Of a stretch of 50,337 bases of DNA, positions 1 to 9,040 are shown in pieces. This stretch comes from a virus. Every line of letters begins with the position of its first letter. Within the stretch, counting starts at the first letter, position 1. Where the stretch lies: IMG/VR virus record IMGVR_UViG_3300045988_027632; one strand, 5' to 3'. Position numbers and translations under genes: made by a program. The notes under the pieces are model-generated. The model saw nothing but the letters and a program-made list of their open reading frames with translations. It had not been told where the DNA came from and made no database searches.

Positions 1-93
1 CTCATGGGTCATGTGTCCAAGGACACGGGAAACCGGGTCTATAATCACAAGACTTTGGATGAACTGAAGGCCACGGTGGAACTTATCAAATAG
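1..93 (+). CDS. int: Tyrosine integrase, C-terminal 30 codons (partial; duplicate of 45910..46002)
   Basis: In frame with 44989..46002; reads LMGHVSKDTGNRVYNHKTLDELKATVELIK*. Confidence 0.9.
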   Translation, partial: LMGHVSKDTGNRVYNHKTLDELKATVELIK

Positions 94-159
94 GGTTCAG
101 GGCGGTGAACATTTGGGGCCGCTGAACACTGAACTATTAACACGGTAGTAACAAAAAAG

Positions 160-191
160 GCGGGAACCCCTGAAAAATCAAGGGTTCCCGC
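160..191. terminator. Bidirectional rho-independent terminator between int (+) and the endolysin/late operon (-)
   Basis: Perfect 10-bp stem gcgggaaccc/gggttcccgc with a 12-nt loop. A6 lies upstream (gives CTTTTTTG on the - strand) and a T-rich tract lies downstream on the + strand. Confidence 0.8.
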
Positions 192-320
192 TTCATCTGT
201 TTTTATTCTACCATGAATTAGTATGCTCTGCAACGCTCCGAAGCGCCCAAATACTGAACATTTCAGCCCGTTGAAAGTGGGGTAAATCGGGGGCGGTAGT
301 AACAAACTAATAACACGGTA

Positions 321-1133
321 TCACACCGGTTTTGCGTAGTCAAGGGAAATCCAACCGGCCCCGCTTTTCAGCTTGCCCCACTTGGTAGCGCCGGTGCCGG
401 TGCTTTCCGCCACAATGGTATAAACACCGGGCGCAATGAAGCCATTCTTCCCATAGTTGGTGCCGGGGCCTTTCCTGATATACGGATCAGAAATTGTCAC
501 CCGCACCAAGTACGGCTCCACCGTGGCCCCTGCGCCGCCCGTGGTGGCGTTTCCGGTGCTGGGGGTAGTAGTTCCCCCACCCCCGCCAGAAGTGCCGCCA
601 GAAAGCCGCCTGTTGACCTCTGCGGCGATCTTGTCATGAAGGTTATAAAGATAATCACCGGGGCAAGACTTGTTTGCAAACCACCGGTGAACCGTCATAA
701 CCATTTCATTTGCCTTGGGGGTATAGGCAAGGGTCTTGTTCTTATCCCCGAACCACAGGATTTTTGTTTTCCCATTGCGCTTGCAAATATCGGTGACAAG
801 ATCAAGAAGGGCGTTGTATGCCTTATCCGTCACCTTGTAGGGGGCCACGGTTTCACTTGCCGTTTCGATGGTCACGGCCCTATGGTCATTGGCGCTGTTG
901 GAACTGCACCAAGAACGATCCTTTTCTTCCACACACAGGCCAATGGAACCATCATAGCCCACAACATAGTTGCAAGACGCTTGCTTGCTGGTAGGCTGGA
1001 ACACTTCACAACCCCGCTTTGCCGTAACCTGACCAACGAAACAGTGAATGGTGATCCGATCAATGGCATGGTTCCGGGGGCTGTTCTTGTTCGGGGAAAT
1101 TTGGGTGACGGTGACAAGGTTACTGTTGCTCAT
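321..1133 (-). CDS. Endolysin: N-acetylmuramoyl-L-alanine amidase (Amidase_2/PGRP-like) with C-terminal SH3-like wall-binding domain
   Basis: 270 aa. Motifs ITIHCFVG, NYVVGYDGS, HRAVTIE, HRWFANKSCPG. Gly/Thr-rich linker, then an SH3-like tail (YTIVAES..WGKLKSGAGWISLDY). Last gene of the - strand operon. Confidence 0.9.
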   Translation of the reverse strand: MSNSNLVTVTQISPNKNSPRNHAIDRITIHCFVGQVTAKRGCEVFQPTSKQASCNYVVGYDGSIGLCVEEKDRSWCSSNSANDHRAVTIETASETVAPYKVTDKAYNALLDLVTDICKRNGKTKILWFGDKNKTLAYTPKANEMVMTVHRWFANKSCPGDYLYNLHDKIAAEVNRRLSGGTSGGGGGTTTPSTGNATTGGAGATVEPYLVRVTISDPYIRKGPGTNYGKNGFIAPGVYTIVAESTGTGATKWGKLKSGAGWISLDYAKPV

Positions 1134-1488
1134 TTTCGGTTTCCTCCTTCACGGGTTCAAGGGCGGGGATTTCCTCATAGTTCACAATCTTGGTCATGTC
1201 ACACAAGGAATCAATCAGGTCACCAAGGGCTTCAGTGTCCACGGGATAATTGATATACTCGGCGGAAGTCTGAACCATAGCCATTACCCATTCCTTGCGG
1301 GTTGCGCCATCTTCAAACTTCTGTTCCGCTTCCTCCATCAGCTTGATCACCAAGCCCAACAAAGCGGCCCAATTCTTTTCCTGCGTGGCTTTCTGGACAT
1401 ACTGCACCAGCTTATAGGCCAAGGGAATACAGGTGGACAGACCAGCAAGAATGGCAACGATCAGGGAAACAATCTGTTCAGCGTTCAT
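1120..1488 (-). CDS. Holin-like protein (one N-terminal TM helix, charged helical tail; resembles LL-H-type holins)
   Basis: 122 aa. TM segment IVSLIVAILAGLSTCIPLAY. Overlaps the endolysin start by 14 nt. Family recalled from memory. Confidence 0.6.
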   Translation of the reverse strand: MNAEQIVSLIVAILAGLSTCIPLAYKLVQYVQKATQEKNWAALLGLVIKLMEEAEQKFEDGATRKEWVMAMVQTSAEYINYPVDTEALGDLIDSLCDMTKIVNYEEIPALEPVKEETENEQQ

Positions 1489-1527
1489 GTTTTTCTTCCT
1501 TTCTGATTTTGTATTTTTGGCCGGGGG

Positions 1528-1797
1528 TCACAGTTCCTTGGTATCGTTGTAAATTTCCGGGCCATACTGTTTCCGCAACTTGATCCGGTTTTCAGCCTTG
1601 GCCTTGGAATAGTAAAAACCGGTTGCTGTTGCCAATTCAGCGAATATGGCCGGGATCAGATACGCAAGGGGTGAAGTGTCCCCCGTTTTCCAAACGATAG
1701 CAAGAGTGAAGGCCGTCACAACCAGCGTGACGGCCCCCACACAACCCAAAATGATTTTGGAAAATTCCTTTTTCGGTTTCTTCTTTACACGGCTCAT
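1528..1797 (-). CDS. Small membrane protein with two TM helices (holin/antiholin candidate)
   Basis: 89 aa. Lys-rich N-terminus; TM segments ILGCVGAVTLVVTAFTLAIVW and LAYLIPAIFAELATATGFYY. Located in the lysis cassette. Confidence 0.6.
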   Translation of the reverse strand: MSRVKKKPKKEFSKIILGCVGAVTLVVTAFTLAIVWKTGDTSPLAYLIPAIFAELATATGFYYSKAKAENRIKLRKQYGPEIYNDTKEL

Positions 1798-2105
1798 TCA
1801 TCCGGGGCTTCCGTGGGCAACTCCAAGAATTTCTTGTGTAGATCGTCCATTACCCCATTCACCCCCAACGAATGATATTGCTTCCAGCAGTTTTCAAAAC
1901 TTTCCCTTGCATAAATCGGGGCAAAGCCTTTTTCAGTGTACTTGTTAAAGTCACTGATCATTTGGCTTCTCAAAAGCGCCTGAATTCCAGCTTTCAAGGC
2001 TTTGGAATCTTCCATGTTGCGCTTGATCAGCCCGTGAAGGTATTTGAATACTCCCGCAATCAGGGCCGGAACCCCGATCAGGCACAACCATTGATAAACC
2101 GTCAT
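1794..2105 (-). CDS. Hypothetical protein with N-terminal TM helix (lysis-cassette associated)
   Basis: 103 aa. WLCLIGVPALIAGVF segment. 4-nt overlap with the downstream ORF. Confidence 0.55.
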   Translation of the reverse strand: MTVYQWLCLIGVPALIAGVFKYLHGLIKRNMEDSKALKAGIQALLRSQMISDFNKYTEKGFAPIYARESFENCWKQYHSLGVNGVMDDLHKKFLELPTEAPDE

Positions 2106-2125
2106 TGAACCACCCCTTCCCGCCT

Positions 2126-2539
2126 TTAGGCGCTGATCAGGCGGAAGATATATTGCAAATCTTCCACTTGGGCGTTGTAGAAGTCATAGTTCCAAATCCA
2201 GTGATCTTCATGCTCCGGCCTTTTGAACCTCTGACAGAAGGGATCTTCCCAAATCCGGTTCCAGCGTTCTTGGTAGGCGGGATCAGGCTTGTTGGGGTTC
2301 TTCTCCAACCGCAACAGGATAGCGGAAACCAGTTCCCCACGCTCTTTGCCCCGGCCATCATCATTGTGGCTGAAGTAGTCATAGGCAATTTGGCTGGTGT
2401 CCGCACACATCAGCTTGTTTTTCCACACAAGAAAACCGCCCTGAACAGTCAAGGCGGTTCCATAAGGAATATTGACATTTTCACCGCAACCGGCTTTGAA
2501 CCTTGCCCTTTTCCGGGCAATATAGGTTTTATGCTTCAT
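2126..2539 (-). CDS. Hypothetical protein
   Basis: 137-aa ORF on the coding strand. Translationally coupled to 2529..3146 (11-nt overlap). Confidence 0.6.
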   Translation of the reverse strand: MKHKTYIARKRARFKAGCGENVNIPYGTALTVQGGFLVWKNKLMCADTSQIAYDYFSHNDDGRGKERGELVSAILLRLEKNPNKPDPAYQERWNRIWEDPFCQRFKRPEHEDHWIWNYDFYNAQVEDLQYIFRLISA

Positions 2540-3146
2540 CGGTCACTTCCTCCCAACCATACACACCGGGTTCCCACACATTGTTTGCAATAGTGGAAGT
2601 CCAGTGCTTTTCATTATGGCTGACTTTAGCCCCCAAGGGGTAGGCATCATGCGCCCCAATGGGCTGAATCCATTCCGGCCATTCCTCGGTAGGATCAGCT
2701 GTCAGGCTCCACAGGCTGGGGGCGGCGGGGGGTGTCCAATCGGCTTGGGAAGTATGGGCCTGAACACACTTGTAAAGGGTTCCATTATAGCGCCGGATTT
2801 GCCCCACCGTGTAGGCGATAGGATAGGCCCATTCAGCGAACAGATCAGCGTGTTCCGCCGCCGTCACCGGGTCAATGCTTCCGGCTTCCGCCATCGTCAC
2901 AAACACAATGCCGTTGGTGGTATTGGCTTTGCTGATTTCTGCCCCTGCATCGGTTACTTCCAAACTGACGGTTTCCAAGCCCTCCATTTCATCCCGGCCA
3001 AGCAAATGGTACGGTGTCCCTTCAAAAACAATGCCCGAAGCATTTTGCTCCGGGCAAAGGACATAGCAACCATTTTCGGCCTGCACAATGTAGTTCAGAT
3101 TTTCCGTCAAGCCAAGTTCGGCCCCGTCTTTGATAATTCTAAACAT
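2529..3146 (-). CDS. Tail-associated carbohydrate-binding protein (two CBM5/12-like repeats)
   Basis: 205 aa. YKCVQAHTSQADWTPPAAPSLWSL and a second ..HWTSTIANNVWEPGVYGWEEV segment resemble chitin/carbohydrate-binding CBM5_12 repeats. Start overlaps the RT 3' end by 40 nt. Confidence 0.6.
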   Translation of the reverse strand: MFRIIKDGAELGLTENLNYIVQAENGCYVLCPEQNASGIVFEGTPYHLLGRDEMEGLETVSLEVTDAGAEISKANTTNGIVFVTMAEAGSIDPVTAAEHADLFAEWAYPIAYTVGQIRRYNGTLYKCVQAHTSQADWTPPAAPSLWSLTADPTEEWPEWIQPIGAHDAYPLGAKVSHNEKHWTSTIANNVWEPGVYGWEEVTDEA

Positions 3147-3904
3147 TTTGTAGCACCTCCGAAAAAGATAGCATAGTAAAGCCGCCGCAACCGCAACAAT
3201 CTTCCGTGATCATTGAAGTTCCGGTAGTATGCGCTTTGGCATTCCATATACTGTTCAATATCGGTGAATTGCCGTTTTCCTTCTATGAACTCTCGGTGGA
3301 ACAGCTTCAGTTTCCTTCTTGCCCGTTTCACACCATCCCGGCTTCCATTCACCTTGATCTTCCCGGTTTCCGTTAGTGTGAACCGGGCTTTGCACCATCT
3401 GAAGGGCTTTGTCAAGGGAATGATTTTGCATTTCCGTTTATTCACTCGAATTCCAAGGGCTTCAAACCGCCGAACAATTTCATGCCCAAGTTTCTTCAGG
3501 GCTTCCACATCGGGCAAAATCAAATAGTAATCGTCCATGTAATGCCCAAAACAGTGAACCCCGGCTTGACATTTGATCCAGTTATCCACGGCGCTTGGCA
3601 ACGCCACCATTTCCTGTTGTGACGGCTCCACACCCAAAGGCAAGCCCCGGCCCGGTGTCGGGCAAGGGGAAGTTTGGATCACCATATCAGCAAGCGCCCG
3701 AAGGTCAGGGTTTAAGATCAGTTCTTGGTGCCGCTGATACAGAAGCGCATGGGGCGCATTAGGGAAAAACCCCTTCAAATCCAATAGCAGAACCGCACCT
3801 TCCCGGCCATAGCGCCGGAAATGCCAATGAAGCTGATCTTTTATGCGGCGAAAATGCCAGTGAAGGCCCTTTCCCCTTTGGCTTGCCCCGTTGTCATAGA
3901 TCAT
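3107..3904 (-). CDS. DGR reverse transcriptase, C-terminal fragment (frame actually open back to 3961)
   Basis: IYDNGASQRGKG (motif 2-like), LGVEPSQ (DGR-type (I/L)GxxxSQ), GHYMDDYYL (YxDD catalytic motif). Confidence 0.9.
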   Translation of the reverse strand: MIYDNGASQRGKGLHWHFRRIKDQLHWHFRRYGREGAVLLLDLKGFFPNAPHALLYQRHQELILNPDLRALADMVIQTSPCPTPGRGLPLGVEPSQQEMVALPSAVDNWIKCQAGVHCFGHYMDDYYLILPDVEALKKLGHEIVRRFEALGIRVNKRKCKIIPLTKPFRWCKARFTLTETGKIKVNGSRDGVKRARRKLKLFHREFIEGKRQFTDIEQYMECQSAYYRNFNDHGRLLRLRRLYYAIFFGGATKCLELSKTGPNLA

Positions 3905-3924
3905 GCCGGGGTTGTAAAGGGGAA

Positions 3925-4308
3925 TCAGAACTTCATTACAATGGGTTTGTGGATTTGTCGGTCAGTAATGTGTGGCGCATCTATGGGGCGTACCTTCCCA
4001 CGCTCTCTTAAAGTGAAATGGGTACACTTCATAGGGTTCCACGCCTGATCCAAAACCTTCTTCCGCCGTCTTGCTGTCCCGGAAAACAGGTGAATTTCAA
4101 AGTTCTGAACACTTTGTTTCCACCGTACCCCGTTACAGCATTTCCGGCCATAGAAGAACATTTTGCGATAACTGAATACTTTGTTCATTGGCCCAAGTGC
4201 ATCACACCGGGCCTGTTTTCTTTCTTGCCGCTTGGCTTTGCGGCGCTGGTATCTCGCTTCATGCCGTTCTTGGCTTGTCATACAAAAAAGTATTCGCCCT
4301 CCGTACAA
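3925..4308 (-). CDS. DGR reverse transcriptase, N-terminal fragment (separated from the rest by a -1 frame change)
   Basis: ..GVRWKQSVQNF..RGKVRPIDAPHITDRQIHK, i.e. RT motif 1 (R.I......DR..). Stops at 3925-3927. The start could be ATG 4281 rather than TTG 4308. Confidence 0.8.
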   Translation of the reverse strand: MYGGRILFCMTSQERHEARYQRRKAKRQERKQARCDALGPMNKVFSYRKMFFYGRKCCNGVRWKQSVQNFEIHLFSGTARRRKKVLDQAWNPMKCTHFTLRERGKVRPIDAPHITDRQIHKPIVMKF

Positions 4309-4524
4309 ATATCTTGTTGGGTGCCGTCTAACTTGCTTTGCCCTTGCACATGAAATGGGTTAAGGCACAATCACCCACCATGCAAGAAGCGTCCGTGTAA
4401 GGGCATCAAAGGGCAGTTTTAGGGATTGGCTACCCAAGGAAGTACCTCTCCTTTTGCGAAGGTCGTCTTTCACCTGAAATCCAAAAGCCGGGTTTCTGTT
4501 ACTCCATTTGACCTCGCAATCGCA

Positions 4525-4655
4525 AAATCCGGGCCGCACGCCACCAGAATTGTTAGCGTTATTGTTGTTGTAGTTGCCGTCCGTATTGACAATGAGGAAG
4601 TTATTGTTGTTGTTGTTGTAATTAGGGGAACGCAACCACCACCACACCGCCGAAG
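4525..4655 (-). repeat. DGR template repeat (TR), 131 nt
   Basis: Aligns to VR 5339..5466. It has 36 adenines on the transcribed strand, mostly in AAC/AAT codons. It lies between the Avd-like ORF and the RT. Confidence 0.9.
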
Positions 4656-4693
4656 GACGAGTTATCAGAGGTACACCTAATTTTTTTTTGAAG

Positions 4694-5158
4694 TTAAGTT
4701 TTCAATTTTCCGCTTACATTTTTGATAGCCCCTTTCAGAAGTTCATTTTCCTTGTCGATCAACTCACCAAGGCTTTGTGCCATCTTATCCAATTTTTCTG
4801 TTGCGTCCTGCCCCTTCACCGGGTTCCCTTTGGAATTGGTGAAAGCCCCTTCAGGATTTTGGTTCAAAATCAGATATACATGGGTCAACCGAACATCAAG
4901 CGCCATCAGAGAAGCCCTTGCTTCAAGAAGGTGGGCTTTCCGAAGTTCTATGCGCTGGGGATCAGAAGGAAAAATGCTGTTGCCCTTTTCCGCATGGTCG
5001 ATAATCTCACCGGCCAGCTTTGCAATGGGTTCCGCTACAAGCCGGGAATATCGGGCGGAAAGACGGGTTAGAAAATTGATGGTTTCCACATAGATTTGAT
5101 TGGCGGTGTTGATGAACTCCGCCTTGCTGGTTGTTCGTTTCTGCTTCAGTACAGACAT
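4694..5158 (-). CDS. avd: Avd-like accessory variability determinant (helical bundle protein)
   Basis: 154 aa from ATG 5158 (RBS aaagggg, 7-nt spacer). All-helical, basic sequence. Sits in the canonical position between the target gene and TR. Assignment rests mainly on synteny. Confidence 0.65.
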   Translation of the reverse strand: MSVLKQKRTTSKAEFINTANQIYVETINFLTRLSARYSRLVAEPIAKLAGEIIDHAEKGNSIFPSDPQRIELRKAHLLEARASLMALDVRLTHVYLILNQNPEGAFTNSKGNPVKGQDATEKLDKMAQSLGELIDKENELLKGAIKNVSGKLKT

Positions 5159-5188
5159 TGGTTCACCCCTTTCCGGGCCATCCTGATT

Positions 5189-5199
5189 AGTATAGCACA
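5189..5199 (-). promoter_or_regulatory. Candidate extended -10 promoter (TGcTATACT) for avd-TR-RT
   Basis: The - strand reads tgtgcTATACT about 30 nt upstream of the avd start and just downstream of the tail-fibre terminator. No good -35 element. Confidence 0.35.
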
Positions 5200-5232
5200 G
5201 AAACGGGAAAAAGCCAATTTTCAAAAATTGCG

Positions 5233-5252
5233 TCGGGCGCTTACGCGCCCGA
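5233..5252 (-). terminator. Rho-independent terminator-like hairpin after the tail-fibre gene
   Basis: 8-bp GC stem tcgggcgc/gcgcccga with a 4-nt loop. On the - strand it is followed by cgcaaTTTTT. Confidence 0.55.
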
Positions 5253-5281
5253 ATTATTTTGCTATCTTCACCCCGGCTGTT

Positions 5282-5301
5282 CCGCCCCCTTGCGGGGGCG
5301 G
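5282..5301 (-). promoter_or_regulatory. GC hairpin downstream of VR (candidate DGR target-recognition cruciform)
   Basis: ccgccccc ttgc gggggcgg: 8-bp stem, 4-nt loop, about 37 nt 3' of the VR end. A smaller hairpin (aatcc/ggatt) lies at 5316-5331. Confidence 0.5.
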
Positions 5302-5329
5302 GATGGGGCCGGGATAATCCTGCGGGGGA

Positions 5330-7168
5330 TTAGACAGCAAAGCCGGGCCGCACGCCACCAGAAAAGTTAGCGTTAGTGTAGTTGCCGGTGCCGTCCGTAT
5401 TGACAACGAGGAAGCTATTGCTGCCGTTGCAAATAGGGGAACGCAACCACCACCACACCGCCGAAGCGGTGCTTGTGTGACGATAGGCAATACGGGAATT
5501 ACCAGCCTGATAATAGGCATATTGAACTTGGTAATTCTGTTCATAGCTGTTGGCCCAATTTCTTGTGCCGAACACTTCAAATTCCGCCAGCAAGAAAAGA
5601 TAATCTTGGGTAGAAGTCACATTGCTTTGAACATTGCCGGTATCGTTGCCCACATTGTCTGTGTACTTGGTTACGGCCTTCATCACGGCTCGCAAAGCGG
5701 AAGGCAAAGCCGCCATCAGACTGTTTGCCGTGGGGCTGGAAGGGGTGCCGCCGTTGCCCAAAACCGTATTCCGCATATAAGAACTTGCCCAACCCCCATT
5801 ATTGGTGTTGCTGGTATTCATGCGGAATCCTTGGCTGGAACCGGTGTTATTGTAGTTGTTATCACACAAAGCAACCGGAGTGGCTCCGATCTTGCCAATT
5901 TGGAAGTGAATGCGGTTACTGCCTTCACGGGAAGCATTGTGGTTGAACCCCAAGATGAAAACATTCACCGTCAGATTGGTGATCCCGAACCCAACCACAT
6001 TTCCGTTGATCACAATAGACTTGGTATCACCTACGGCCCAATAATCATCCGCTGTTCCTGCGGCGCTTGCCTCGCTGATCGTGTCCCAATCGTTATCATT
6101 CAAGGTTGCGGTGGGAAGGGTCACAGACACGGAACAGGTCTTATTGGCCGGGGCCGTATAGTTGGTGCCTTCTGCCACGCTGACAGTGATTGTGGCGTTA
6201 CCCTTGCCCACAGCGGTTACAGTTACCGTGGTGCCGTTTACATTGACCGTGGCAACTCCGGGATTGTTGGATTGAGCAGAAATAGCACCATCCCCGGCCC
6301 GTGTCACCGTGAAAGTGTCCGTCATTTTGGAAGCGCCCAAATCCATAGTGCTTTTACTCAAAGAAAGGCTTCCAGCGGCCTTTCCAATCGTCCAAGCAAC
6401 CGTCTTGGCTCCGGTGGTGCCATCACTCCACCGGTAGTTGTCCGTGGGCGTGAAGGTGGCGTTATAGCTTCCCGCATTGGTTCCGCTGGTGGTGCCGCCA
6501 ATGGTCAATTTAGAAGTATCATACCCATTCCAAGAAGGGCTTTGGGGCGAACCGGTATAAGTAAGGCTCCCGCTTTGGGTAGGGGCCGCAACCGTGGCTT
6601 TGTTGATCGTCCATTGAACCTGTTTGGCCGTGGTGGTGCCGTCCGTCCACTTGTAGGGGTCTTTCGGTGTGAAAGTTGCCGTGTAGGTTCCCGCATCGGT
6701 GCCGGTGGTCACACCCCCAAGGGTCAGGGTGTCGGGGTTATAGCTGTTCCAAAAAGGGCTTTGGGATTGTCCGTTATAGGTCAAGGTGCCATTTTGGGTG
6801 GGAACAACATCAATGGTATAAACGAACCCGGACACGGCTTCCAAGGCCGCATCTGCCGCATCTTGGGCATTTTGGGACGCTTCCAAAGCCGCCGCCACAT
6901 CTTCCCGAATATCGGCGTGGGCGGTTTCACTGGTGTTGTGTTCTTCAATGGCATCTTCAATATCTTGGGTGGGGTCAAAGGTGGAATCGGGAAGCTGTTC
7001 AGGCTTCACCTTTCCATCATCCCCAAGATCGGCTTTCCCGGCCAAGGAATCATCATGGGCTTTCAGGGCCGCATCAATTTTATCCATGTTGCGGTTCTGA
7101 TCGTCCACATTGTAGAAATCTTCTTGGGCCGGTTTGACCAAATCATAATTGGTGGTATATTCAGCCAT
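5330..7168 (-). CDS. Tail fibre / receptor-binding protein; DGR target with C-terminal WWLRSP...GGVRPGF lectin-like variable domain
   Basis: 612 aa. Tail-fibre-type N-terminus (YDLVKPAQEDFYNVDDQNRNMDKID). Two tandem ~70-aa repeats (aa 122-264). An Ig-like (Big_2-like) segment (VATVNVNGTTVTVTAVGKGNATITVS). C-terminus carries the VR. Confidence 0.9.
   Translation of the reverse strand: MAEYTTNYDLVKPAQEDFYNVDDQNRNMDKIDAALKAHDDSLAGKADLGDDGKVKPEQLPDSTFDPTQDIEDAIEEHNTSETAHADIREDVAAALEASQNAQDAADAALEAVSGFVYTIDVVPTQNGTLTYNGQSQSPFWNSYNPDTLTLGGVTTGTDAGTYTATFTPKDPYKWTDGTTTAKQVQWTINKATVAAPTQSGSLTYTGSPQSPSWNGYDTSKLTIGGTTSGTNAGSYNATFTPTDNYRWSDGTTGAKTVAWTIGKAAGSLSLSKSTMDLGASKMTDTFTVTRAGDGAISAQSNNPGVATVNVNGTTVTVTAVGKGNATITVSVAEGTNYTAPANKTCSVSVTLPTATLNDNDWDTISEASAAGTADDYWAVGDTKSIVINGNVVGFGITNLTVNVFILGFNHNASREGSNRIHFQIGKIGATPVALCDNNYNNTGSSQGFRMNTSNTNNGGWASSYMRNTVLGNGGTPSSPTANSLMAALPSALRAVMKAVTKYTDNVGNDTGNVQSNVTSTQDYLFLLAEFEVFGTRNWANSYEQNYQVQYAYYQAGNSRIAYRHTSTASAVWWWLRSPICNGSNSFLVVNTDGTGNYTNANFSGGVRPGFAV
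5339..5466 (-). repeat. DGR variable repeat (VR), 128 nt, last ~40 codons of the tail-fibre gene
   Basis: Differs from TR at 14 TR-adenine positions, at one TR thymine, and by one missing AAC codon. The A-free 5' 32 nt and the 3' GGTGGCGTGCGGCCCGG are identical. Confidence 0.9.
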
Positions 7169-7796
7169 CTTTCATTTCCTTTCTGATAGATTTATTGGAA
7201 ATCCCTGCAAGTTGGCCGTGGGTCAAAGGCAGAAGATCACCATACGGGGTGGGGACATGGGCCTGAAGTTCTTCCGTTCTCACTTCATAATGGGTGTACC
7301 AAGCAAGCTGGGCATGGGTGAAGCCCTTCAGGGTTTCATGGATATTGAACAACTGTTGAACTTGCAAAACCAAATTGACGGGGGCAACCCGTTCAAGAAG
7401 GTTTTGAACATCTTCAAAGTTCTTCTTTGCGGCCACGCCAACCTTCACAAGAAGGGTGTAATCCGTGACTTCCGCCGAAGAATTACCGGGGCCGCACAGG
7501 TTTTCCAAGATCACCCGAAGCTGGGGCAAGGTGTACGGAAGTTCTTCATTCAACCGGGCCAGCACACGAAAGCGCCGATCATCCAAGGTATCTGTTCCCT
7601 TGGGGGTAATACCCAAGATTTTTTCCCACCGGGACAACCCAAGGTTTCCAGCGGTTTTGATGAACTGGTTTACAAGAAGATCATCCGCCGCCGCCCAAGC
7701 GGTTTCAAACTCCGGTTGTTCGGCTCCGGTGATCCCTTGAAATTCCGCATAGTCCCGGACAACATAGGGAAGGTAATTGATTAGTTTGCGATCCAT
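7161..7796 (-). CDS. Baseplate/tail-fibre-proximal protein (XkdU-like by synteny)
   Basis: 211 aa. Sits between the baseplate J-like gene and the tail fibre. 8-nt overlap with the fibre start. Confidence 0.55.
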   Translation of the reverse strand: MDRKLINYLPYVVRDYAEFQGITGAEQPEFETAWAAADDLLVNQFIKTAGNLGLSRWEKILGITPKGTDTLDDRRFRVLARLNEELPYTLPQLRVILENLCGPGNSSAEVTDYTLLVKVGVAAKKNFEDVQNLLERVAPVNLVLQVQQLFNIHETLKGFTHAQLAWYTHYEVRTEELQAHVPTPYGDLLPLTHGQLAGISNKSIRKEMKDG

Positions 7797-7810: not shown

Positions 7811-9040
7811 TTATAGGCTTTGGGTGCCAGTTGTCGGGGTAATCTCACCAAGAACCGGGATATAATCAAGGTTCAAGGTGTAGTTGGCCGCAAGGCCATT
7901 GATTTTGGTATCAGCAATATCCAAAATCCCGCTTACACCCAACAGGCGGCTTTCAATTTGGCTGACACGAACCACAAGGGCCTGTTCCTGATCCGCCCAT
8001 GTTTCGGACAGTTCTTCAAAGTACCCTTCAATGGTCTGTTCAACATAGGATTGAACATCTTCCCAACTCCACCCCTGCTGATAGGTCAGAGTAAAAGACA
8101 AATCCACGGTTTCACTTTTCACGCCTTCCACCTTCACCACATGGCCGATAGGGGCAGTTCCCAAGCCTTCCCCGGCGTTCTGAAGGGGGTCAACGGCGGT
8201 TTGTACCTGTTCCACAAGGGTTGTGGAAGGTACGCTGAAAGTGCTGTCAATGATAATCAGCTTCACGGTTCCGCCCACAGTCAGCTTGTTATTGATACCG
8301 GCTTCATACACCTTTACCAACCAAGCCTTGATTTCCTCGGACGCTTCCACGGTTGCCATCCATTCTGAAACCCCTTCCGGGGGAACCAGTTCAGCGGGGC
8401 GAATATCACCGTTCCAAGCCCGGTAAACCTTCACACCGCCAACGCCGGGGATTGCGTTCACCTTTTCGATATAGTCAATCCGGTTGCCGCCGAAGGCTTG
8501 GGCATTCAGGCTATCAAAATACCGCTGTCTGAAAACCTCGGTATCTTCTTCATCCTCACCGGGGATCAACAGGGCCGTAACCGTACAGGTTTCAAGCCCT
8601 TCAATGTATTCAATGGGAATCACTGTGGCCCCGTAGTCATTGCCAGCTTCCCCCGGTGTTTCACAGGTGATTTCATACACCCCTTCACCCCGTTCAGCGG
8701 AAACATAATAGTTCAGTTCCCCAATGGAAAAACGGGTGTTCAATGCCAAGTGCAAAGTGGCCGGGGTAATGGTCAACTGCAAAACAGCGGCGCTTGCGGG
8801 TTGGGGAGAAAGGCCCCGTTCCGCCGCTCTTTGGATCAGGTAAGGGCGGCTTGCCGTGTCCGCAAAGGTTTCATTCAAAACCGTGTCAAGCTGGATATAC
8901 AGATTTTGCAGTTCCACAGCGGCGGGGGCATTCCCAAGCCAAACCAGCGAACCTTCACGGGTGTCCAAATTGCTGTTGATGGACAAAGCCCGTTCCAGCA
9001 TCCGGGTCAGCAAAAGCGCATAGGTAATATTTTCATACAT
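7811..9040 (-). CDS. Baseplate J-like protein (XkdT-like)
   Basis: 409 aa. Position and size fit the PBSX-like baseplate block. Start overlaps the upstream stop. Confidence 0.7.
   Translation of the reverse strand: MYENITYALLLTRMLERALSINSNLDTREGSLVWLGNAPAAVELQNLYIQLDTVLNETFADTASRPYLIQRAAERGLSPQPASAAVLQLTITPATLHLALNTRFSIGELNYYVSAERGEGVYEITCETPGEAGNDYGATVIPIEYIEGLETCTVTALLIPGEDEEDTEVFRQRYFDSLNAQAFGGNRIDYIEKVNAIPGVGGVKVYRAWNGDIRPAELVPPEGVSEWMATVEASEEIKAWLVKVYEAGINNKLTVGGTVKLIIIDSTFSVPSTTLVEQVQTAVDPLQNAGEGLGTAPIGHVVKVEGVKSETVDLSFTLTYQQGWSWEDVQSYVEQTIEGYFEELSETWADQEQALVVRVSQIESRLLGVSGILDIADTKINGLAANYTLNLDYIPVLGEITPTTGTQSL

What the first reader, a model, noticed from the sequence alone, without database searches (positions are those of the whole stretch)
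3107..7168. Complete diversity-generating retroelement (target - avd - TR - RT) aimed at the tail-fibre tip
The - strand carries four parts in order. (i) A 612-aa tail-fibre ORF whose last ~40 codons (..AVWWWLRSPICNGSNSFLVVNTDGTGNYTNANFSGGVRPGFAV*) form VR 5339-5466. (ii) A helical 154-aa ORF in the Avd position. (iii) A non-coding TR at 4525-4655 that would read WWWLRSPNYNNNNNNFLIVNTDGNYNNNNANNSGGVRPGF. (iv) A reverse transcriptase with YMDD and the DGR-type (I/L)GxxxSQ motif (LGVEPSQ). My hand alignment gives 14 substitutions at TR adenines, 1 at a TR thymine and 0 at G/C. The A-free 5' 32 nt are identical. Adenine-restricted TR-to-VR divergence is the defining signature of DGR mutagenic retrohoming (Bordetella phage BPP-1 paradigm). 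The system would diversify the receptor-binding tip of a temperate myovirus. The WWLRSP...VRP scaffold looks like the DUF1566/DUF6273 lectin-like class rather than the Mtd-type CLec, and I cannot tell from here whether this exact lineage has been described.
Basis: partly seen in the sequence, partly recalled or inferred. Interest (0 to 1): 0.9.

Follow-up and report, generated by a model that had tools for sequence, protein, structure and literature searches.

The report
Phage tail-fibre hypermutation cassette, RT broken
This is a genuine diversity-generating retroelement that rewrites the tip of a gut phage's tail-fibre-position protein, but it belongs to an already described Faecalibacterium-phage lineage and, in this copy, its reverse transcriptase gene is split by a one-base deletion.

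Summary
The sequence observation holds. The TR (4525-4655) and VR (5339-5466) align with 14 mismatches at TR adenines, 1 at a thymine and none at G/C (Fisher p = 1e-8).

The RT gene is split into two ORFs by a 1-nt deletion (AAAA to AAA at 3946-3948). The TR is one AAC codon longer than the VR.

The DGR reading is strongly supported. In 11 near-identical phage copies from other metagenomes the TR is conserved. All 34 TR-adenine columns vary among the VRs, against 2 of 94 other columns (p = 5e-29).

The RT's only solved relative by sequence is the Bordetella phage DGR RT. The TR-RT spacer is Rfam RT-2 RNA (167 bits). A GC hairpin with a 4-nt loop follows the VR. The VR sits at the C-terminus of a DUF6273 domain.

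The "Avd" ORF shows no detectable sequence similarity to Avd. It is basic, and its model is a four-helix bundle that best matches Avd-like viral proteins.

The lineage is already published: FP_Taranis (2018) and Roos/Pioen (2024). Verdict: an ordinary new member of a known kind, probably frozen in this genome. The window is a wrapped 45.9-kb circular temperate myovirus.

The parts
5330..7168 (-). DGR target gene, 612 aa. It has a tail-fibre-like N-terminus, two Ig-like repeats and a C-terminal DUF6273 domain.
   Evidence: ORF. Pfam DUF6273 at residues 455-612 (E 3e-15), plus Big_2 and He_PIG. PHROG 37900 matches full length. The gene lies directly after the Baseplate_J (7811-9040) and Mu Gp48-like (7161-7796) genes. 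A 219-nt internal direct repeat at 6387-6802 corresponds to the Ig-like repeats.
5339..5466 (-). Variable repeat (VR), 128 nt: the last 42 codons of the target, ending two codons (AV) before the stop.
   Evidence: Aligned to the TR. There are 11 distinct VR versions in otherwise near-identical phages, and they vary only at TR-adenine columns.
5339..5362 (-). IMH-like 3' end of the VR (TCTGGTGGCGTGCGGCCCGGCTTT). It is A-free and GC-rich, identical to the TR except C5342 versus A4528.
   Evidence: The A/C difference is fixed in all 11 VR/TR pairs. Its function is inferred by analogy with BPP-1 IMH/IMH* (PMC5758913).
5282..5301 (-). GC-only 8-bp inverted repeat with a 4-nt loop (CCGCCCCC GCAA GGGGGCGG), 37 nt after the VR end. 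It is a candidate target-site hairpin/cruciform.
   Evidence: DNA folds. FP_Taranis and Pioen have a different stem (GCCCAC GGAA GTGGGC) at the same position. The feature class is described in PMC3240598.
5233..5252 (-). Terminator-like hairpin followed by a T-run, after the target gene.
   Evidence: consensus match only.
5189..5217 (-). Sigma-70-like promoter match (TTGGCT-17-TG-TATACT) ahead of the accessory gene.
   Evidence: It is a consensus match only and no more frequent than in shuffled sequence.
4694..5158 (-). Accessory gene in the Avd position. It encodes a 154-aa basic (pI 9.45) protein predicted to be a four-helix bundle, in PHROG 30516.
   Evidence: There is no sequence match to Avd. 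A 34%-identical homologue also sits between a DUF6273 gene and an RT.
4525..4655 (-). Template repeat (TR), 131 nt here. It is adenine-rich (AAY codons) and non-coding.
   Evidence: In the 128-nt consensus TR, 33 of 34 adenines lie at codon positions 1 or 2 of the VR frame. The TR is 128 nt in most relatives, and also in another assembly of this same genome (L014).
4276..4516 (-). Structured RNA of Rfam family RT-2 (RF03077), filling the TR-RT spacer and overlapping the RT start codon.
   Evidence: 166.8 bits, E 5e-40, full-length model. It is present at the same place in Taranis, Pioen, MT839857 and L013 and in 14 of 14 further loci.
3925..4281 (-). RT gene, N-terminal fragment: 118 aa from ATG 4281, ending at a premature stop.
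3946..3948 (-). Frameshift site. The run is AAA here and AAAA in intact copies (CACAAA[A]CCCATTGT).
   Evidence: The same deletion is present in L014, L016, L018 and L019.
3107..3943 (-). RT gene, C-terminal part in the -1 frame. It carries LGVEPSQ and YMDD. The longest ATG-initiated ORF is 3107-3904 (265 aa).
   Evidence: (RVT_1).
49016..50337 (-). Second appearance of the same RT and part of the RT-2 RNA. It is produced by the window's 4,428-nt wrap-around repeat and is not a second DGR.

Best explanation
The region is a diversity-generating retroelement of the Taranis-like temperate myovirus lineage, which infects Faecalibacterium and other Oscillospiraceae.

In intact relatives the mechanism is as follows. 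An RNA comprising the TR plus the RT-2 structured spacer is reverse-transcribed by the element's RT, presumably with the small basic helical accessory protein. Adenines of the template are copied unfaithfully. The cDNA then replaces the VR, guided by the shared A-free GC-rich 3' end and probably by the GC hairpin downstream. This re-randomises up to 33 nucleotide positions in 17 AAY or ANN codons at the C-terminal DUF6273 tip of the protein encoded just after the baseplate genes.

What is shown: the anatomy, the adenine-specific TR-to-VR divergence, and population-level diversification in this lineage. What is inferred: the priming role of RT-2, the role of the accessory protein, the role of the hairpin, and receptor binding by the target.

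In this particular genome the RT is interrupted by a 1-nt deletion. The cassette is therefore most likely inactive at present, with its VR frozen in a previously diversified state.
For: - Window TR/VR mismatches: 14 at A, 1 at T, 0 at G/C, p = 1e-8.
- Eleven loci carry the identical accessory protein; ten of them have RTs 97-100% identical to one another (L013: 94%). They have essentially one TR and 11 different VRs. All 34 TR-A columns vary, against 2 of 94 non-A columns (p = 5e-29).
- Twenty further IMG/VR TR/VR pairs give 304 A mismatches against 39 non-A mismatches. Of the 39, 31 come from two loci (L031, L104).
- The RT matches Pfam RVT_1. Its only PDB sequence hit is 8ub7_A, the BPP-1 DGR RT (E 2e-8), and LGVEPSQ aligns to IGSLTSQ. 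It reaches no group II, retron or DRT family cutoff.
- RT-2 RNA fills the TR-RT spacer in every relative examined. This parallels the BPP-1 spacer RNA, RF03022.
- A hairpin with a GC stem and 4-nt loop follows the VR. Its stem sequence differs in Taranis while its position is conserved.
- The target C-terminus is DUF6273, as in the experimentally active Roos and Pioen DGRs (PMC11792537).
- The closest isolate, FP_Taranis, has gp68 annotated as a DGR target (PMC5883640).
- RT frameshift.
Against: - No reads were available, so neither current VR heterogeneity nor the frameshift allele frequency in this sample could be measured.
- The accessory protein has no detectable sequence homology to Avd, and fold matches are marginal (Foldseek E 0.01-0.6).
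- The hairpin loop is GCAA, which departs from the published GRNA consensus at position 2. It lies 37 nt from the VR, against a published range of 4-34 nt.
- The TR is one codon longer than the VR here, although another assembly of the same genome (L014) shows equal lengths.
- The tail-fibre role of the target rests on gene position and weak PHROG hits, not on demonstrated homology to a characterised fibre.
Confidence: 0.9

Rival explanations
1. The cassette is fully functional in this genome. On this reading the 1-nt deletion in the RT is a sequencing or assembly artefact, or it is bypassed by ribosomal or transcriptional slippage.
For: The lesion is a homopolymer length change (A4 to A3). 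The rest of the RT differs from intact copies by only 2-3 base substitutions, with no further stops or indels. That means the lesion is very recent if real. The phage assembles as a circle, so it appears to be replicating.
Against: The identical deletion appears in four other contigs made by different pipelines (L014, L016, L018, L019), although these probably derive from one sample. No X XXY YYZ slippery heptamer surrounds the site, and a 3-4 nt A run is too short for efficient transcriptional slippage (sequence; general knowledge). At least some of these contigs are short-read MEGAHIT assemblies (k127/k141 contig names), and a consistent error in a 4-nt homopolymer is uncommon in such data.
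Confidence: 0.2
2. The diversified protein is not the receptor-binding tail fibre. It would instead be another exposed virion protein, for example an Ig-like or lectin adhesin for mucus or other environmental glycans, so the DGR would tune adherence rather than host range.
For: The middle of the protein contains Ig-like domains (Big_2, He_PIG). The VR domain gives a PHROG hit to 'Hoc-like head decoration' (phrog_10993, E 8.5e-10). The best structural match of the C-terminal 256 aa is a domain of a bacterial IgA peptidase (9qa6, E 6.6e-5). The published papers state that the function of the Taranis, Roos and Pioen targets is unknown.
Against: The gene sits immediately after the Baseplate_J and Mu gp48/P2 gpI-like genes, the canonical tail-fibre slot of contractile-tail phages. 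[quoted passage not shown]
Confidence: 0.25
3. TR and VR are an ordinary diverged duplication, and the neighbouring RT belongs to an unrelated retroelement such as a group II intron, retron or Abi/DRT.
For: Weak generic RT-domain hits to group II and DRT models.
Against: The mismatch spectrum is adenine-restricted, both within the window and across the population. All group II and DRT scores fall far below family cutoffs (35 bits against a cutoff of 300). The only solved RT recovered is the DGR RT. No intron RNA domains or retron msr/msd were found; instead the Rfam RT-2 RNA lies next to the TR.
Confidence: 0.01

Closest known systems
DGR of Faecalibacterium phage FP_Taranis (NC_047914; Cornuault et al. 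2018, PMC5883640), and of phages Roos and Pioen (PMC11792537)
   Same: The gene order is the same: DUF6273 target, small ORF, TR, RT-2 RNA, RT. Nucleotide identity across the cassette is 66-68%. The RT is 70% identical at the amino-acid level over its C-terminal 280 residues. The VR is at the C-terminus of DUF6273. A hairpin lies at the same position after the VR. All are temperate contractile-tail phages of the same host group.
   Different: - This is a different phage species, only about 66% identical at the nucleotide level.
- Taranis and Pioen carry an extra small ORF between the target and the accessory gene.
- The RT here is frameshifted, whereas theirs is intact at 392-393 aa.
- The TR sequence differs.
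Bordetella phage BPP-1 DGR (mtd-avd-TR-brt)
   Same: The order and strand logic are identical: target/VR, small basic accessory, TR, structured spacer RNA, RT. Both show adenine-specific TR-to-VR change. Both have a GC-rich A-free 3' homology block, a GC hairpin with a 4-nt loop after the VR, and an RT with YMDD and (I/L)GxxxSQ.
   Different: - The RT is only 27% identical.
- The spacer RNA belongs to a different Rfam family, RT-2 RF03077 rather than Phage_DGR RF03022.
- The accessory protein has no sequence similarity to Avd.
- The target scaffold is DUF6273, not the Mtd/FGE-type CLec.
- The phage is a myovirus of a Gram-positive host, not a podovirus.
Legionella LdtA / DUF1566-class (CLec2) DGR targets (Wu et al. 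2018, PMC5758913)
   Same: After the IgA peptidase, the next structural matches of the VR-bearing domain are the Legionella Lcl C-terminal (DUF1566) domain and C-type lectins.
   Different: Those matches are not significant (E 0.8-4, TM below 0.3). Pfam assigns DUF6273, not DUF1566.

Membership tests
Diversity-generating retroelement (DGR) | A TR/VR repeat pair whose differences are confined to TR adenines | tested here: met
   In the window: 14 A, 1 T, 0 G/C, p = 1e-8. Across 11 VRs: 34 of 34 A columns vary against 2 of 94 non-A columns, p = 5e-29.
Diversity-generating retroelement (DGR) | An RT of the DGR clade, with YMDD and the motif-4 (I/L)GxxxSQ | tested here: met
   Both motifs are present. 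The only PDB sequence hit is the BPP-1 bRT 8ub7_A. All group II, DRT and retron models score far below their cutoffs. The RT is 70% identical over its C-terminal 280 residues to the RT of the published Taranis DGR. No formal phylogeny was run.
Diversity-generating retroelement (DGR) | An intact RT open reading frame, meaning the element is currently competent | tested here: not met
   A 1-nt deletion at 3946-3948 splits the RT into 118-aa and 265-aa ORFs. The RT is intact in 12 related loci. This bears on activity in this copy, not on family membership.
Diversity-generating retroelement (DGR) | VR at the 3' end of a target gene, in a variation-tolerant ligand-binding scaffold | tested here: met
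   The VR ends two codons (AV) before the stop codon. The scaffold is DUF6273 (E 3e-15), the same domain as in the active Roos and Pioen DGR targets.
Diversity-generating retroelement (DGR) | Unidirectional TR-to-VR transfer: the TR is conserved while the VR varies in the population | tested here: met
   Apart from AAC-tract length, the TR is identical in 11 of 13 loci, which together carry 11 distinct VRs. L013 differs by one substitution. L010 and a few IMG/VR contigs have partly VR-like TRs.
Diversity-generating retroelement (DGR) | IMH/IMH*-type 3' boundary and a GC hairpin/cruciform downstream of the VR | tested here: inconclusive
   A shared A-free GC-rich block with one fixed A/C difference is present. 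There is an 8-bp GC stem with a 4-nt loop 37 nt after the VR. The loop GCAA deviates from the GRNA consensus, and the distance lies just outside the published 4-34 bp range. Function was not tested.
Avd (accessory variability determinant; Pfam 23S_rRNA_IVP-type four-helix bundle) | Sequence or profile similarity to the Avd family | tested here: not met
   Neither the protein nor 31 diverse homologues give a Pfam or NCBIfam hit to an Avd-type family, even at E up to 10. hhalign against BPP-1 Avd gives probability 0.1-0.3%. No PDB sequence hit was found. Cornuault et al. also found no Avd homologue in Taranis.
Avd (accessory variability determinant; Pfam 23S_rRNA_IVP-type four-helix bundle) | A small, basic four-helix-bundle protein encoded between the VR and TR of a DGR | tested here: met
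   The protein is 154 aa with pI 9.45, against 9.55 for BPP-1 Avd and a family mean of 9.5. The AF2 model has four long helices, pLDDT 79. In BFVD, 'Avd-like protein' entries rank 2, 3, 4 and 6 (E 0.01-0.04, TM up to 0.74). In PDB, 8ub7_C (the chain of the BPP-1 DGR RNP entry that matches Avd in size) gives TMt 0.74 and 2gsc gives TMt 0.79, but E is above 0.1. Synteny is conserved down to 34% identity.
Avd (accessory variability determinant; Pfam 23S_rRNA_IVP-type four-helix bundle) | Homopentamer that binds the RT and is required for cDNA synthesis | not testable with these tools
   This needs biochemistry or multimer modelling.
Rfam RF03077 RT-2 RNA | Score above the family gathering threshold over the full model | tested here: met
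   166.8 bits against a gathering score of 40, covering model positions 1-222.
Pfam DUF6273 | Score above the gathering threshold | tested here: met
   56.9 bits against a threshold of 23.5, covering residues 455-612.

The most novel reading that the evidence does not exclude
The 154-aa protein family (PHROG 30516) has 479 clusters at 50% identity and no Pfam annotation. Together with the RT-2 RNA it may define a distinct DGR subclass, in which an accessory factor with an Avd-like fold but no recognisable Avd sequence, paired with its own spacer RNA, replaces the BPP-1 Avd/Sp pair. That would explain the 'Avd-less' DGRs reported for Taranis-type gut phages and would assign a function to the orphan Rfam motif RT-2. 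In addition, length changes in the TR (AAC)n tract (125, 128 or 131 nt) appear to be copied into the VR in at least one relative (L008). If real, this DGR would generate codon-number diversity as well as substitution diversity.
Probability: 0.45. Interest if true: 0.45.

Novelty: new member of a known kind. Interest (0 to 1): 0.3.

Why it matters
The cassette adds no new principle. DGRs that diversify DUF6273-tipped proteins of Faecalibacterium and Oscillospiraceae phages are already published, and two were shown to be active.

Its practical value is threefold:
1. It is a very widespread gut prophage. Its exact accessory protein is indexed in 618 blocks of the metagenome collection, and the public data already contain a natural diversification experiment on it.
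2. It offers a matched pair of RT alleles, 2-3 substitutions apart, one intact and one frameshifted. That pair could be used to measure how fast a VR diversifies or freezes in vivo.
3. It links an orphan Rfam RNA (RT-2) and an unannotated protein family to the DGR core machinery. This is useful for DGR annotation pipelines that currently look for Avd by sequence.

Tried and rejected
- Second VR or second DGR in the window. A scan for TR-like sequence with adenines wild-carded found only the known VR. The second RT and RT-2 copy at 49016-50337 is the window's exact 4,428-nt wrap-around.
- Sequence homology of the accessory ORF to Avd. Pfam, NCBIfam, PADLOC, PDB phmmer and hhalign against BPP-1 Avd with two profiles were all negative.
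- The search for related loci with the diverse accessory alignment A5 failed because no conserved stretch was available. It was repeated with the closer alignment A3.
- Programmed frameshifting at the RT break. No slippery heptamer is present and the A run is only 3 nt, so it was judged unlikely.
- RT calls of 308-326 aa in related loci looked at first like further disruptions. tblastn showed these RTs are intact, and the short calls are only start-codon choices by the gene caller.
- Mtd-type CLec fold for the target. No significant structural match to Mtd or TvpA was found, only weak C-type lectin and Lcl hits.
- Literature search for a published link between RT-2 and DGRs. Only the general speculation in Weinberg et al. 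2017 turned up.
- The promoter scan found one site, which is no more than in shuffled sequence, so it is not used as evidence.

Full report
**1. The observation**

- a 612-aa ORF at 5330-7168;
- a 154-aa ORF at 4694-5158;
- an adenine-rich repeat at 4525-4655;
- an RT reading frame containing LGVEPSQ and YMDD.

A local alignment of the two repeats (coordinates) reproduces the hand count. There are 14 mismatches at TR adenines (7 A>G, 4 A>T, 3 A>C), one T>G, none at G or C, and an identical A-free 5' 32 nt. With 14 of 34 adenines changed against 1 of 94 other positions, Fisher's exact p is 1e-8.

- The TR is 131 nt and the VR 128 nt. The TR has one extra AAC unit in its (AAC)n tract.
- The RT is not a single ORF. 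A 118-aa N-terminal piece (ATG 4281 to a stop at 3925) and a 265-aa C-terminal ORF (3107-3904) lie in different frames.

**2. The RT frameshift**

tblastn with the intact 393-aa RT of Faecalibacterium phage FP_Taranis shows the homology switching frame at residues 106-113. An alignment with Taranis, Pioen and MT839857 shows one base missing in the window.

Copies from other metagenomes that differ by only 2-3 base substitutions read CACAAAACCC where the window reads CACAAACCC, an A4 to A3 change at 3946-3948. Those copies encode an uninterrupted 391-aa RT.

The deletion recurs in contigs L014, L016, L018 and L019. However, L014 and L016 are 99.97-100% identical to the window and carry the same VR. 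These are therefore probably several assemblies of one sample. The lesion is thus unlikely to be an assembler artefact, but it is documented for one population only.

No slippery heptamer surrounds it. I conclude that the RT is most likely a very recent pseudogene in this genome.

**3. Is it a DGR?**

The exact 154-aa protein occurs in 618 blocks of the metagenome collection.

Across the eleven distinct loci recovered that contain both repeats, there is essentially one TR and eleven different VRs. All 34 TR-adenine columns differ from the TR in at least one VR, against 2 of 94 non-adenine columns (p = 5e-29). The substitutions are A>G 74, A>T 46 and A>C 38. Of the 34 adenines, 33 sit at codon positions 1 or 2, the classical AAY design.

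One of the 34 (TR 4528 A / VR 5342 C) is C in every VR. It is therefore a fixed boundary difference of the IMH/IMH* kind rather than mutagenesis.

Twenty more TR/VR pairs from IMG/VR give 304 adenine mismatches against 39 non-adenine mismatches. Of the 39, 31 come from two contigs, L031 and L104.

The RT matches Pfam RVT_1. Its only sequence match among all solved structures is 8ub7_A, the BPP-1 DGR RT. BLASTP against Brt aligns LGVEPSQ with IGSLTSQ. Group II, DRT and other defence-RT models score far below their thresholds.

The DGR interpretation is therefore secure for the lineage.

**4.

- *Spacer RNA.* The 240-nt TR-RT spacer (4276-4516) is a full-length, high-scoring member of Rfam RT-2 (RF03077, 166.8 bits). 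The same RNA lies in the same place in Taranis, Pioen, MT839857 and L013. It is also present in 14 of 14 further loci that encode a homologue of the accessory protein, including one that is only 34% identical. BPP-1's spacer instead matches RF03022. Weinberg et al. 2017 tied only RT-10 to a DGR and speculated that other RT motifs might serve DGRs. By position, RT-2 is the counterpart of the BPP-1 spacer RNA, which primes cDNA synthesis in that system (my own knowledge of the BPP-1 literature, not checked here). Its function here is inferred.
- *Hairpin.* An 8-bp all-GC inverted repeat with the 4-nt loop GCAA lies 37 nt after the VR, at 5282-5301. Taranis and Pioen have a different stem with loop GGAA at the same place. 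This fits the target-site hairpin/cruciform of Guo et al. 2011: 7-10 bp GC stems, 4-nt GRNA loops, 4-34 bp from the VR. The loop deviates from the consensus by one base, and the distance is slightly larger.
- *Transcription signals.* A terminator-like hairpin (5233-5252) and one promoter-like site (5189-5217) separate the target from the accessory gene. These are consensus matches only.

**5. The 'Avd' ORF**

By sequence it is not an Avd. Pfam, NCBIfam, PADLOC, PDB phmmer and hhalign against BPP-1 Avd are all negative, for the protein and for 31 homologues down to 33% identity. Cornuault et al. likewise found no Avd homologue in Taranis.

Several lines nevertheless point to an Avd-like role:
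- It is basic, with pI 9.45. BPP-1 Avd is 9.55 and the published Avd mean is 9.5.
- Its AlphaFold model (pLDDT 79) has four long helices.
- Among predicted viral structures, entries named 'Avd-like protein' rank 2, 3, 4 and 6 (E 0.01-0.04, TM up to 0.74).
- Among solved structures, 8ub7_C (the chain of the BPP-1 DGR RNP entry that matches Avd in size) and the helical-bundle protein 2gsc give TM 0.74-0.80 on the target length. Their E-values are non-significant and they sit among generic helical bundles.
- The family has 479 representatives at 50% identity, and the DUF6273-ORF-RT synteny is kept at 34% identity.

I file it as an Avd-like accessory factor by fold, charge and position, not as a demonstrated Avd family member.

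**6. The target and the phage**

Pfam assigns DUF6273 to residues 455-612, with Ig-like domains upstream. The gene follows the Baseplate_J and Mu gp48-like genes.

The window also encodes a tail sheath, tube, tape measure, portal, terminase, a tyrosine integrase and an S24 repressor. 'Temperate myovirus' is therefore right, and the tail-fibre slot is right by synteny.

A model of the last 256 aa (pLDDT 81) has one significant PDB match, a domain of the Thomasclavelia ramosa IgA peptidase (E 6.6e-5). It is followed by non-significant matches to the Legionella Lcl (DUF1566) C-terminal domain and C-type lectins. The lectin-like idea is compatible with this but not demonstrated.

Close homologues of the accessory gene occur in genomes of Faecalibacterium tardum, Faecousia, Pseudoflavonifractor, Colidextribacter and uncultured Oscillospiraceae and Clostridia.

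**7. Comparison with what is known, and novelty**

The nearest isolates are FP_Taranis, Roos and Pioen, at 66-68% nucleotide identity and with the same cassette order. The RefSeq record for Taranis labels gp68 'DGR target'. The 2018 and 2024 papers describe these DGRs, their DUF6273 targets and read-level activity for Roos and Pioen.

The finding is therefore a new member of a known kind. The modest additions are:
- the frameshifted RT allele;
- the assignment of RT-2 RNA and of an unannotated helical protein family to this DGR type;
- TR tract-length polymorphism (125, 128 or 131 nt), which is mirrored in the VR in at least one relative (L008).

**8. Caveats**

- The 3-nt TR/VR length difference is not robust. 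L014, another assembly of the same genome, has a 128-nt TR.
- Some contigs (L010, L031, L104) have TRs that carry VR-type substitutions, which may be assembly chimeras.
- The window itself is a wrap-around of a 45,909-bp circle (1-4428 = 45910-50337). The RT therefore appears twice, but there is only one DGR and one VR.

Noticed in passing
window 1-4428 and 45910-50337: There is an exact 4,428-nt terminal direct repeat, so the window is a wrap-around of a 45,909-bp circular phage genome. Contig L014 (45,933 nt) crosses the junction. The integrase (44989-46002) therefore lies next to the lysis genes, as in an excised or attP form.
   Followed up: yes
window 21997-22238 (-): A cluster of three phage-encoded tRNA genes (Gln-TTG, Leu-CAA, Glu-TTC) lies between the Mu F-like and portal genes.
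   Followed up: partly
window 2529-3146 (-): A 205-aa protein with a CBM_5_12 carbohydrate-binding module overlaps the 3' end of the RT gene by 40 nt. It is conserved directly after the RT in all related loci, between the DGR and the holin/amidase module. Its role is unknown.
   Followed up: no
L010:6502-6629; also L031, L104 and several IMG/VR TRs: Some contigs have a TR whose 3' half carries VR-type substitutions. In L010 the VR equals that altered TR plus two further A>G changes. This is either an assembly chimera between the TR and a VR haplotype, or a real overwriting of the TR followed by new homing.
   Followed up: partly
TR (AAC)n tract, window 4607-4618; L007, L008, L014, L016: The TR is 125, 128 or 131 nt long depending on the locus. 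L008 has a 125-nt TR and a 125-nt VR, while L007 has a 125-nt TR and a 128-nt VR. Two assemblies of the window's own genome disagree (L014 128 nt, L016 131 nt).
   Followed up: partly
L015:4896-6798: In one metagenome contig a phage integrase gene abuts the RT at residue 116, and the structural genes, target, accessory gene and TR are all absent. This is an apparent deletion remnant of the prophage that retains only the RT C-terminus and the lysis module.
   Followed up: no
IMG/VR loci L029-L106: Of the 80 viral contigs, 35 end within 600 nt upstream of the accessory gene, at or just beside the VR. This fits assembly breakage caused by within-sample VR heterogeneity or TR/VR repeat confusion.
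   Followed up: partly
window 4360-4647 (-): This 95-aa ORF is simply the TR read as protein and continues into the RT-2 RNA. A gene caller annotated it as a DUF6273 gene in L016, which is an annotation trap.
   Followed up: yes
window 5330-6100 (-), model m14a78bc94bdf: The only significant structural match of the target's C-terminal 256 aa is a domain of the Thomasclavelia ramosa IgA peptidase (PDB 9qa6, E 6.6e-5). This suggests DUF6273-type domains also occur in secreted bacterial host-interaction proteins.
   Followed up: no
L004-L013 downstream flanks: Past the amidase gene, the same prophage abuts different host genes in different samples (rubrerythrin, a response regulator, DegV, an ECF transporter, transaldolase, SpoIID and others). 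This implies several integration sites or several host species.
   Followed up: no
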